A stretch of 23,303 bases of DNA from a virus (lineage: Duplodnaviria > Heunggongvirae > Uroviricota > Caudoviricetes). This document shows positions 21,298 through 22,547 of the stretch, piece by piece. Location: the IMG/VR virus record IMGVR_UViG_2859788636_000006; one strand, 5' to 3'. Numbering within the stretch: the first letter of the stretch is position 1; each line of letters opens with the position of its first letter. The notes under the pieces are model-generated. The model was given only the letters and a program-made list of their open reading frames with translations, did no database searches and was not told the DNA's origin. The translations under genes were made by a program, and so were the position numbers.

Positions 21298-21366
21298 TGA
21301 AGTGGCACACTGAATTTGGCCACCTGAACAGAGGTGATATGCTCACCTCAGAACAACACAGGTGCT

Positions 21367-21672
21367 CCAATGAAAAAAAGAAATTTTAGCGCAGAGTTTA
21401 AACGCGAATCCGCTCAACTGGTTGTTGACCAGAAATACACGGTGGCAGATGCCGCCAAAGCTATGGATGTTGGCCTTTCCACAATGACAAGATGGGTCAA
21501 ACAACTGCGTGATGAGCGTCAGGGCAAAACACCAAAAGCCTCCCCCATTACCCCGGAACAAATTGAAATCCGTGAGCTCAGGAAAAAGCTACAACGCATT
21601 GAAATGGAGAATGAAATATTAAAAAAGGCTACCGCGCTCTTGATGTCAGACTCCCTGAACAGTTCTCGATAA
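21367..21672 (+). CDS. IS911 OrfA (HTH / leucine-zipper transposition protein)
   Basis: Translation from [21 protein letters not shown]... to ...[11 protein letters not shown] matches IS911 OrfA as recalled; the ORF track starts 11 codons upstream. Confidence 0.88.
21621..21627 (+). other. Programmed -1 ribosomal frameshift site of IS911 (A_AAA_AAG) producing the OrfAB transposase
   Basis: Heptamer in the orfA frame (codons TTA AAA AAG); the orfB frame is -1 relative to orfA. Confidence 0.8.
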
Positions 21673-21698
21673 TCGGGAAACTCAGAGCGCATTATCCT

Positions 21699-22538
21699 GT
21701 GGTCACACTCTGCCATGTGTTCGGGGTTCATCGCAGCAGCTACAGATACTGGAAAAACCGTCCTGAAAAACCAGACGGCAGACGGGCTGTATTACGCAGT
21801 CAGGTACTTGAGCTACATGGCATCAGCCACGGTTCGGCCGGAGCAAGAAGCATCGCCACAATGGCAACCCGGAGAGGCTACCAGATGGGACGCTGGCTTG
21901 CTGGCAGGCTCATGAAAGAGCTGGGGCTGGTCAGCTGTCAGCAGCCGACTCACCGGTATAAACGTGGTGGTCATGAACATGTTGCTATCCCTAACTACCT
22001 TGAAAGGCAGTTCGCCGTGACCGAGCCAAATCAGGTGTGGTGCGGTGATGTGACCTATATCTGGACGGGTAAGCGCTGGGCGTACCTCGCCGTTGTTCTC
22101 GACCTGTTCGCAAGAAAACCAGTGGGCTGGGCCATGTCGTTCTCGCCGGACAGCAGGCTCACCATGAAAGCGCTGGAAATGGCATGGGAAACCCGTGGTA
22201 AGCCCGGCGGGGTGATGTTCCACAGCGATCAGGGCAGTCATTATACGAGCAGGCAGTTCCGGCAGTTATTGTGGCGATACCAGATCAGACAGAGTATGAG
22301 CCGGCGCGGAAACTGCTGGGATAACAGCCCAATGGAACGCTTCTTCAGGAGTCTGAAGAACGAATGGATGCCGGTGGTGGGTTACGTAAGCTTCAGCGAG
22401 GCAGCTCACGCCATAACGGACTATATCGTTGGATATTACAGCGCACTAAGACCGCACGAATATAACGGTGGGTTACCCCCAAACGAATCGGAAAATCGAT
22501 ACTGGAAAAACTCTAACTCGGTGGCCAGTTTTTGTTGA
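21699..22538 (+). CDS. IS911 OrfB (DDE transposase catalytic region; expressed mainly as OrfAB fusion)
   Basis: 279-aa ORF in the -1 frame relative to orfA; IS3-family transposase sequence character. Confidence 0.88.
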
Positions 22539-22547
22539 CCACTTCAA

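What the first reader, a model, noticed from the sequence alone, without database searches (positions are those of the whole stretch)
21298..22547. IS911-like element fuses a truncated HNH gene to a truncated integrase with no target-site duplication
The IS ends abut the middle of two unrelated genes: a 5'-truncated HNH endonuclease on the left (minus strand) and a 5'-truncated lambda-like integrase on the right (plus strand). The 3-4 bp flanks do not match (…GATG at the left end, AATC… at the right). This is the signature of an IS-mediated adjacent deletion or recombination between two IS copies rather than a simple insertion. The event appears to have removed the lysis, regulatory, replication and excision region that would normally lie between the packaging genes and int.
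Basis: partly seen in the sequence, partly recalled or inferred. Interest (0 to 1): 0.45.

Follow-up and report, generated by a model that had tools for sequence, protein, structure and literature searches.

The report
IS911-linked deletion in Shigella prophage
A copy of the common Shigella jumping gene IS911 sits where about 19 kb of a Shigella flexneri prophage was lost, leaving half an HNH nuclease gene joined to two-thirds of an integrase gene; this is ordinary IS-driven prophage decay.

Summary
Window 21298-22546 is a complete 1249-bp IS911, 99.8% identical to the IS911 annotated in phage Sf6.

- **Left flank:** the 3' 316 nt of a 498-nt terminase-associated HNH gene (minus strand).
- **Right flank:** nt 318-1074 of a 1074-nt HK022-type integrase gene.
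- **Flanking triplets:** ATG and AAT, so there is no target-site duplication. Simple IS911 insertions with the same termini do show 3-bp duplications (GTT in Sf6, ATT in E. coli VL7S7).

The window comes from Shigella flexneri. The junction is identical in closed genomes and is indexed in more than 1600 sample blocks of the assembly collection. The remnant lies at the HK022 attB between torT and the former torS. It is collinear with an intact E. coli prophage at that site, where about 19 kb separates the two breakpoints: lysis, Q, nin, replication, immunity, recombination, xis and the 5' end of int. An outer-to-outer flank junction means deletion, not inversion.

Which route produced it remains unresolved: a one-sided deletion from the IS911 left end, or recombination between two IS911 copies. 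One sister strain has a further 405-bp deletion flush with the same IS end, which slightly favours the first route.

This is a known kind of event and of low interest.

The parts
1..753 (-). IS1 (context). It is cut by the window edge; insB is 1-504. It forms the left boundary of the prophage remnant and truncates the tail-fibre-assembly gene at 754.
   Evidence: The product hits PF03400 DDE_Tnp_IS1. The IS1 terminal repeat ends at 753. L016 keeps 1450 bp more, an acyltransferase gene, at this junction.
754..20423 (-). Tail and head module of the prophage, from the truncated tail-fibre-assembly gene to terL (context). Of the 27 E308 proteins up to TerL that were queried, 24 align over all or nearly all of their length. 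The gp53-like tail-fibre protein and the SLT/tape-measure protein align over about three-quarters. DUF2335 gave no match.
   Evidence: tblastn of E308 prophage proteins. The closest phages are Citrobacter phage Omnitron (83% coverage, 92% identity), vB_EcoM-606R2 and SEN34.
20426..20998 (-). Small terminase subunit gene terS, intact.
   Evidence: 190 of 190 residues, 98.9% identical to E308 TerS. PF03592 Terminase_2.
20982..21297 (-). HNH', the 3' 316 nt of a 498-nt terminase-associated HNH endonuclease gene. Codons 62-165 and the stop are kept; 182 nt of the 5' end are missing.
   Evidence: The alignment to the intact E308 HNH ends at 21297. tblastn shows residues 62-165 at 100% identity. HNH_3 profile positions 18-46 of 46 only.
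21298..22546 (+). IS911, complete, 1249 bp. IRL is 21298-21333, orfA 21370-21672, the A6G frameshift site 21621-21627, orfB runs to 22538, and IRR is 22511-22546. IRL abuts HNH' and IRR abuts int'.
   Evidence: 99.8% identity to Sf6 IS911. PF01527 and PF00665/PF13683 hits. Inverted repeats and slippery site. Termini calibrated on copies that have duplications.
22547..23303 (+). int', nt 318-1074 of a 1074-nt HK022-type tyrosine integrase gene. Codons 107-357 are kept. The arm-binding domain and part of the core-binding domain are lost; the catalytic domain is kept. The stop codon is at 23301-23303.
   Evidence: Alignments. 96.6% nt identity to phage HK022 int. Pfam comparison with the full-length protein.

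Best explanation
The window is a grounded remnant of a temperate phage integrated at the HK022 attB, between torT and torS, in Shigella flexneri. The phage has a myovirus-type tail and an HK022-type integrase. A deletion of roughly 19 kb, bounded by one complete IS911, removed everything between codon 61 of the terminase-associated HNH gene and codon 106 of int. The lost region would hold the late-gene regulator Q, the lysis genes, nin genes, replication genes, the immunity region, recombination genes and xis.

Shown:
- the identity and exact termini of the IS;
- both truncations;
- the absence of a duplication;
- the collinearity of the two outer flanks with intact relatives at the same chromosomal site.

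Inferred, favoured route (about 55% within this explanation):
- IS911 first inserted into int near nt 318, with IRR facing the int 3' end.
- One or more one-sided deletions then started at the IRL end and removed the int 5' end up to the middle of HNH. Such deletions could arise by aberrant strand transfer from the IS end or by transposition-linked repair.

Consequence: without xis, the Int arm-binding domain, replication genes, Q and lysis genes, the remnant cannot excise, replicate or lyse. Its roughly 20 kb of structural genes have lost their late-gene activator.
For: - IS identity and termini.
- HNH breakpoint at 21297.
- int breakpoint at 22547 (int nt 318).
- No duplication, whereas control insertions have GTT and ATT.
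- Source and spread. The proteins are named Shigella flexneri. The junction is identical in chromosome-scale records. The exact int' protein is indexed in 1623 sample blocks and terL in 2291.
- Chromosomal context. The order is appA, etk, etp, gfcE, gfcD', attL, int', IS911, HNH', then the tail genes, IS1, attR and torT. The site is the HK022 attB described in PMC6814406.
- Intact comparators. E. coli 873.10 at the same site has about 19 kb between terL and int. E308 has the full HNH followed by lysis, Q, nin, replication and immunity genes.
- One-sided deletion from IRL. Strain UGYU01000001.1 (L010/L023) has a further deletion of window 20893-21297, flush with the same IS911 IRL. Its IRR-int' junction is unchanged.
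- Analogous IS3-family/int' fusions with different left partners in E. coli RM14723, GMF054 and L033, and in E. fergusonii. IRR faces int' in four of the five such fusions, counting the S. flexneri copy itself.
- Background literature. IS911 is one of five IS expanded in all Shigella, and IS cause deletions there (PMC7373316). Deletions starting at an IS3-family end have been reported and modelled (bioRxiv 10.1101/2023.06.07.543989).
Against: - No intermediate was found: neither IS911 in an otherwise intact int nor in an intact HNH, with a duplication. The order of events is therefore inferred.
- The end product is identical to what recombination between two direct IS911 copies would leave.
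- Copy-out-paste-in transposition does not by itself explain adjacent deletions; the reviewed model needs an extra resolution step.
- The 405-bp secondary deletion has 2 bp (TG) of possible microhomology, so it could be replication slippage rather than a transposase-driven event.
- The deletion size is an estimate from mosaic relatives, not from the true ancestor.
Confidence: 0.85

Rival explanations
1. Two IS911 copies inserted independently, in the same orientation, into HNH and into int of the intact prophage. Each made its own 3-bp duplication. RecA-dependent recombination between them then deleted the intervening roughly 19 kb. One hybrid IS remained, with the left flank of one copy and the right flank of the other.
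For: The predicted product matches what is seen: a complete IS, outer flanks and non-matching triplets ATG/AAT. [quoted passage not shown] One draft contig, L012, joins the same IS911 to intS instead of int', as IS-IS exchange would. IS911 insertions in phage genes and in int genes are seen independently: Sf6 and protein P0012.
Against: It needs two independent insertions in one prophage before the deletion. No genome with either single insertion was found among the contigs read. L012 is a single short-read contig that crosses a multi-copy repeat, so it may be a mis-join. The sister-strain 405-bp deletion flush with IRL shows a one-copy route operating at this very element.
Confidence: 0.35
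2. The two flanks come from different prophages or loci and were joined by an IS911-mediated inversion or translocation. The missing halves would then survive elsewhere in the genome.
For: The same structural module occurs with a different integration module (intS/torI at argW) in E. coli E308. L012 joins this IS911 to intS. Shigella genomes are known for IS-mediated rearrangements.
Against: In S. flexneri both prophage ends lie at the same attB, in the orientation of an intact prophage at that site. attR is next to torT and attL is next to int'. A junction of the two outer flanks cannot come from an inversion between copies inside the element. Fragment-level protein searches found no HNH N-terminal piece ending at residue 61 and no Int N-terminal piece ending at residue 105, and no returned fragment that carries a name is from Shigella. 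That negative has limited sensitivity.
Confidence: 0.04
3. The deletion arose without the IS, by illegitimate recombination, and IS911 later inserted exactly at the deletion scar.
For: None specific. Another deletion next to this prophage, attL to gfcD, occurred without any IS.
Against: A later simple insertion would carry a 3-bp duplication, as in Sf6 and VL7S7. None is present. It would also need the IS to land precisely on the scar.
Confidence: 0.03

Closest known systems
IS911 (IS3 family) as a simple insertion, e.g. in the ninG-like gene 54 of Shigella phage Sf6
   Same: The same element: 99.8% identity, 1249 bp, the same termini, orfA/orfB with an A6G frameshift site. It also sits in a lambdoid phage of S. 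flexneri.
   Different: In Sf6 the IS is flanked by a GTT duplication and both halves of the interrupted gene are present. Here there is no duplication and the two flanks are halves of unrelated genes about 19 kb apart in intact relatives.
IS3-family-associated flanking deletions (IS629/IS1203 in E. coli O157; 'sloppy' strand-transfer and IEE models)
   Same: A deletion with one endpoint exactly at an intact IS3-family end. There are recurrent examples in prophages (parallel cases).
   Different: No IEE gene or transposase activity was examined here. The IS here is IS911, and the mechanism is inferred from the end product only.
HK022-type prophages at the torS-torT attB of E. coli (PMC6814406)
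   Same: The same attachment site and the same integrase type (96.6% nt identity). attR and attL core sequences are recognisable.
   Different: The S. flexneri element lacks the 5' third of int, xis and the whole early and lysis region. torS itself is deleted. The structural module is of the Omnitron/SEN34 myovirus type, not the HK022 siphovirus type.
IS911/int' fusions in other strains: E. coli GMF054 (P22 gp17'-IS911-int' at torS), E. coli RM14723 (P'-IS-int' at mdtA) and E. fergusonii CP042945 (IS-int' at torS)
   Same: An IS3-family element joins a 5'-truncated HK022-type int to a truncated, unrelated phage gene. No duplication was found at the two of these junctions where both flanks were read (GMF054 and L033).
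   Different: These are independent events. The breakpoints in int differ (nt 96, 295, 319, 855), as do the left partners. Two involve a 91%- and an 87%-identical IS911 relative, and one an IS629-like element.

Membership tests
IS911 (IS3 family) | About 1250 bp with imperfect terminal inverted repeats of about 36 bp ending 5'-TG...CA-3' | tested here: met
   1249 bp; the repeats match at 24 of 36 positions, TGAAGTGG...CCACTTCA.
IS911 (IS3 family) | orfA (HTH) and an overlapping orfB (DDE/rve) joined by a -1 frameshift at A AAA AAG | tested here: met
   PF01527 on orfA; PF00665 and PF13683 on orfB. A6G at 21621, in the last codons of orfA, just upstream of the orfB frame.
IS911 (IS3 family) | Near-identity to a reference IS911 sequence | tested here: met
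   99.8% identity to the feature annotated 'insertion sequence:IS911' in Sf6 AF547987. 99% identity to RefSeq 'IS3-like element IS911' copies. ISfinder itself was not available.
Simple IS911 insertion | A 3-bp direct duplication of the target, with both halves of one interrupted sequence on either side | tested here: not met
   The flanks are ATG and AAT. The left flank is HNH and the right is int. Controls Sf6 (GTT) and VL7S7 (ATT) meet the criterion.
IS-bounded deletion (adjacent deletion or IS-IS recombination) | An intact IS flush with both breakpoints, and flanks that are collinear outer segments of a sequence that is continuous in relatives | tested here: met
   873.10 intact prophage at the same attB; E308; attR at torT.
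IS-bounded deletion (adjacent deletion or IS-IS recombination) | An ancestral or intermediate state observed in a related genome | tested here: not met
   No contig with the exact terL or int' shows an undeleted state. No matching N-terminal fragments were found. Only a further-deleted derivative was found (L010).
Lambda/HK022-type tyrosine integrase | An N-terminal arm-binding domain, a core-binding domain and a C-terminal catalytic domain | tested here: not met
   The remnant has PF00589 and a partial core-binding domain but no PF09003 arm-binding domain. The full-length 873.10 protein has all three. It is a gene fragment of this family, not a functional member.
Lambda/HK022-type tyrosine integrase | Sequence identity to HK022 int and a location next to attL at the torS/torT attB | tested here: met
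   96.6% nt identity over window 22547-23303. An att core lies 70-85 bp after the stop codon in S. flexneri loci. attB as described in PMC6814406.
Terminase-associated phage HNH endonuclease (HNH_3) | A complete HNH_3 domain encoded upstream of terS and terL | tested here: not met
   Only profile positions 18-46 of 46 remain. The intact E308 homologue has positions 1-46. The position upstream of terS is kept.

The most novel reading that the evidence does not exclude
The HK022-type int gene may hold a preferred target for IS3-family elements at about nt 295-320. This region includes a 6-bp inverted repeat, GGCAAT-N9-ATTGCC. Three different elements abut int within 25 bp in three lineages: IS911 in S. 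flexneri at nt 318, an IS629-like element in an E. coli/'S. dysenteriae' genome at nt 319, and an 87%-identical IS911 relative in E. fergusonii at nt 295. If this is real, insertion into int followed by one-sided deletion would be a recurrent, convergent route by which enterobacteria immobilise this class of prophage.
Probability: 0.2. Interest if true: 0.4.

Novelty: already known. Interest (0 to 1): 0.14.

Why it matters
It matters little beyond annotation.

- It documents, at base resolution, how one prophage of S. flexneri was grounded. It lost int function, xis, replication, immunity and lysis genes but kept about 20 kb of head and tail genes.
- It adds one clean example, with sister-strain derivatives, of IS911-bounded deletion in an IS-rich pathogen where such decay is already well described.
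- For annotation, the HNH and int ORFs here should be marked as pseudogene fragments. The 113-aa 'HNH endonuclease' call begins inside the IS.
- The only potentially wider point is the possible IS3-family hot spot in HK022-type int genes, which is not established.

Tried and rejected
- **Junction in E. coli.** I searched 5426 complete E. coli genomes for the whole junction. None holds it, so E. coli gave comparators, not sisters.
- **Apparent flank extension.** The IS911 copy near fec appeared to extend 9 bp into matching flank (H19-H24). It has an unrelated flank, so this was dropped.
- **Apparent shared left flank with Sf6.** Sf6 IS911 seemed to share 7 bp of left flank. It does not: Sf6 has ...CTTGGTT. 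This was a BLAST edge effect.
- **First ORF of the window.** I first took it for a tail-fibre-assembly gene. It is IS1 insB.
- **Two different prophages.** I considered that HNH' and int' came from two prophages, at argW and at torS, because E308 carries the module at argW and L012 joins the IS to intS. I rejected this after finding attR at torT and attL next to int' in S. flexneri. L012 is a single short-read contig crossing a repeat and may be a mis-join.
- **Reciprocal or intermediate products.** Protein searches with the missing N-terminal 61 aa of HNH and 106 aa of Int returned only unrelated frameshift or contig-end fragments, plus one IS911 insertion at a different int site (P0012). This is negative but of limited sensitivity.
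- **Cluster-mate int' proteins.** P0060 turned out to be frameshifted ints at a gyrA-side site and is irrelevant.
- **Hot-spot statistics.** They were not pursued. The cases were found through a shared 231-aa ORF call, which biases them towards this part of the gene.

Full report
**What is at the coordinates**

Window 21298-22546 is a complete IS911.
- It is 1249 bp long.
- Its terminal inverted repeats match at 24 of 36 positions (TGAAGTGG...CCACTTCA).
- orfA is 21370-21672 (PF01527). An A AAA AAG slippery site lies at 21621. orfB runs to 22538 (PF00665/PF13683).
- It is 99.8% identical to the feature annotated IS911 in Shigella phage Sf6, 99.7% identical to the copy in SfII, and 99% identical to E. 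coli copies annotated 'IS3-like element IS911'.

Base 22547 already aligns with int.

**The two flanks**

Left flank:
- Identity with the intact 498-nt HNH gene of an E. coli E308 prophage runs up to window 21297 and stops there.
- Residues 62-165 are kept at 100% identity.
- The cut lies inside the HNH_3 domain, of which only profile positions 18-46 of 46 remain.
- The 113-aa ORF that some annotations call 'HNH endonuclease [Shigella flexneri]' starts at a GTG inside the IS.

Right flank:
- Identity with intact HK022-type int genes (1074 nt) begins at int nt 318, which is window 22547.
- This part is 96.6% identical to phage HK022 int.
- The arm-binding domain and the first third of the core-binding domain are gone. 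The catalytic domain remains.

**Target-site duplication**

I calibrated the termini on two simple insertions. The Sf6 copy has GTT on both sides, and an E. coli VL7S7 copy has ATT on both sides. With the same termini, the window copy has ATG on the left and AAT on the right.

**Source and reality of the junction**

- The exact terL protein is indexed in 2291 sample blocks and the exact 231-aa int' ORF in 1623. Only the 24 blocks with the longest contigs were read in each look-up.
- Source names are Shigella flexneri.
- Two loci are 100% identical to window 8801-23303. The other chromosome-scale records that span the whole junction differ by one to three positions.
- Draft contigs break at the IS, as expected for a repeat.
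- No complete E. coli genome has this junction.

The junction is real and is present in every S. flexneri contig read; the block counts suggest it is widespread.

**Chromosomal setting**

In S. flexneri the order is: appA, etk, etp, gfcE, gfcD', attL, int', IS911, HNH', terS, terL, the head and tail genes, a truncated tail-fibre-assembly gene, IS1, about 330 bp of phage end with attR, then torT. This is the HK022 attB between torS and torT (PMC6814406).

E. coli 873.10 carries an intact prophage at that site, with a closely related structural module and the same int type. Between its terL and int lie a different terS, KilA-N, lysis genes, Q, nin genes, replication genes, cII/cro/cI, N, recT and others, and xis. 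That places about 18.9 kb between the positions equivalent to the two breakpoints. E308 has the full HNH gene followed by Gp49, KilA-N, lysis, Q, nin, replication and immunity genes.

The window joins the two outer flanks of this region in their original orientation. The event is therefore a deletion of the interior. An inversion between inverted copies would have joined an outer flank to an inner one.

**Mechanism**

Two routes give the same product.

(a) IS911 inserts once, and a one-sided deletion then starts from one IS end.

(b) Two directly oriented IS911 copies recombine.

I slightly favour (a), with the original insertion in int and deletion from IRL, for two reasons.
- Strain UGYU01000001.1 has a further 405-bp deletion (window 20893-21297) that ends flush with the same IRL. 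Its IRR-int' junction is untouched.
- In four of five independent IS3-family/int' fusions, IRR faces int' while the left partner varies.

Against (a):
- Copy-out-paste-in transposition does not simply yield adjacent deletions.
- The 405-bp event has 2 bp of possible microhomology.

For (b):
- IS911 is multi-copy in Shigella, and IS-IS deletions are accepted there.
- One contig (L012) joins this IS to intS. That contig is a single short-read assembly across a repeat and may be a mis-join.

I found no intermediate or reciprocal product. The N-terminal fragments of HNH and Int in the protein collection do not end at the right residues, and none that carries a name is from Shigella. That search has limited sensitivity.

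**Consequences**

These consequences are inferred. The remnant lacks xis, the Int arm-binding domain, replication genes, Q and lysis genes. It can neither excise nor kill the cell. Most of its structural genes are still full-length relative to E308 but have lost their late-gene activator.

**Comparison with what is known**

Every component is known: IS911, an HK022-type int at a described attB, a terminase-associated HNH gene, and IS-bounded deletion in an IS-expanded Shigella genome. Parallel events exist in other strains:
- E. coli GMF054: P22 gp17'-IS911-int' next to torS.
- E. coli RM14723: P'-IS-int' next to mdtA.
- E. coli EC12: ninB'-IS911-'traR.
- An E. coli/'S. dysenteriae'-labelled genome: IS629-like element joined to int'.
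- E. fergusonii: inverted IS911 relative joined to int'.

This is ordinary prophage decay.

**Verdict**

The kind of event is already known and the interest is low. The one lead that could be more general is that three different IS3-family elements meet int within nt 295-320, two of them 1 bp apart. The cases were found in a biased way and the clustering is not established.

Noticed in passing
window 1-753 and 754-1054; L016 8303-9751; L017: The left end of the window is an IS1 (insB 1-504) that truncates the tail-fibre-assembly gene at 754. Another S. flexneri genome (AFHC01000025, L016) keeps 1450 bp more here, an Acyl_transf_3 gene, but has lost the attR segment on the other side of the IS1. 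This looks like two different one-sided IS1 deletions from one insertion.
   Followed up: partly
just right of the window: L021 6697-6790; compare L019 about 33780 and 25295-25420: After the int stop come 85 bp of attL, including the core ...CAACTTATTCACCT. The sequence then switches to the middle of gfcD. torS to the 5' half of gfcD (about 8.4 kb by 873.10 coordinates, L019 about 25,390 to 33,800) is missing, with no IS at the junction. Intact gfcD reads CAACTTACCGCCCTGAAGT at that point, which matches the att core region at 14 of 19 positions. This suggests Int-mediated recombination with a secondary att site, or microhomology.
   Followed up: partly
L010/L023 (UGYU01000001.1), equivalent to window 20893-21297: A sister strain has an extra 405-bp deletion flush with the IS911 IRL. 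It removes the rest of HNH' and the first 35 or so codons of terS. The right junction is unchanged, and 2 bp (TG) of microhomology is possible.
   Followed up: yes
L012 (GCA_013825385.1, AAUQJP010000001.1) 7417-9442: In one draft contig the same IS911 and HNH' are joined on the IRR side to the 5' half of intS, next to yfdC, mlaA and fadL, instead of to int'. This is either an IS911-IS911 exchange between the argW and torS loci or a mis-join across the repeat.
   Followed up: partly
int nt 295-320 (window 22547 = nt 318); L033 about 5940; L037 about 4916: Three different IS3-family elements abut HK022-type int within 25 bp in three lineages: IS911 at nt 318, an IS629-like element at nt 319, and an 87%-identical IS911 relative (inverted) at nt 295. 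The site overlaps the inverted repeat GGCAAT-N9-ATTGCC. This may be a target hot spot, but the cases were found through a shared ORF call, so the sample is biased.
   Followed up: partly
L001, L002, L005 (E. coli RM14723, EC12, GMF054): Analogous IS3-family-bounded deletions occur in lambdoid prophages at mdtA and torS in E. coli: P'-IS-int', ninB'-IS911-'traR and P22 gp17'-IS911-int'. No duplication was found at the two junctions where both flanks were read, EC12 and GMF054.
   Followed up: partly
window 754-20998: The roughly 20-kb structural module is nearly identical among the S. flexneri genomes read (at most 6 differences over the overlapping 12 kb). Most of its genes are full-length relative to E308, despite the loss of all regulatory and lysis genes. 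Recent clonal descent is the simplest reading. Retention by selection was not tested.
   Followed up: no
L004 1-1412 and L029 12035-12235 (E. coli E308): The same head, tail and HNH module is combined in E308 with a KplE1-type integration module: intS at argW on the tail side and torI at the far end. This shows module exchange between phages with different integrases.
   Followed up: no
window 1 and 23303: Both window ends coincide with stop codons, of IS1 insB and of int'. The window was evidently cut on gene boundaries, so the IS1 left terminus and attL lie just outside it.
   Followed up: yes
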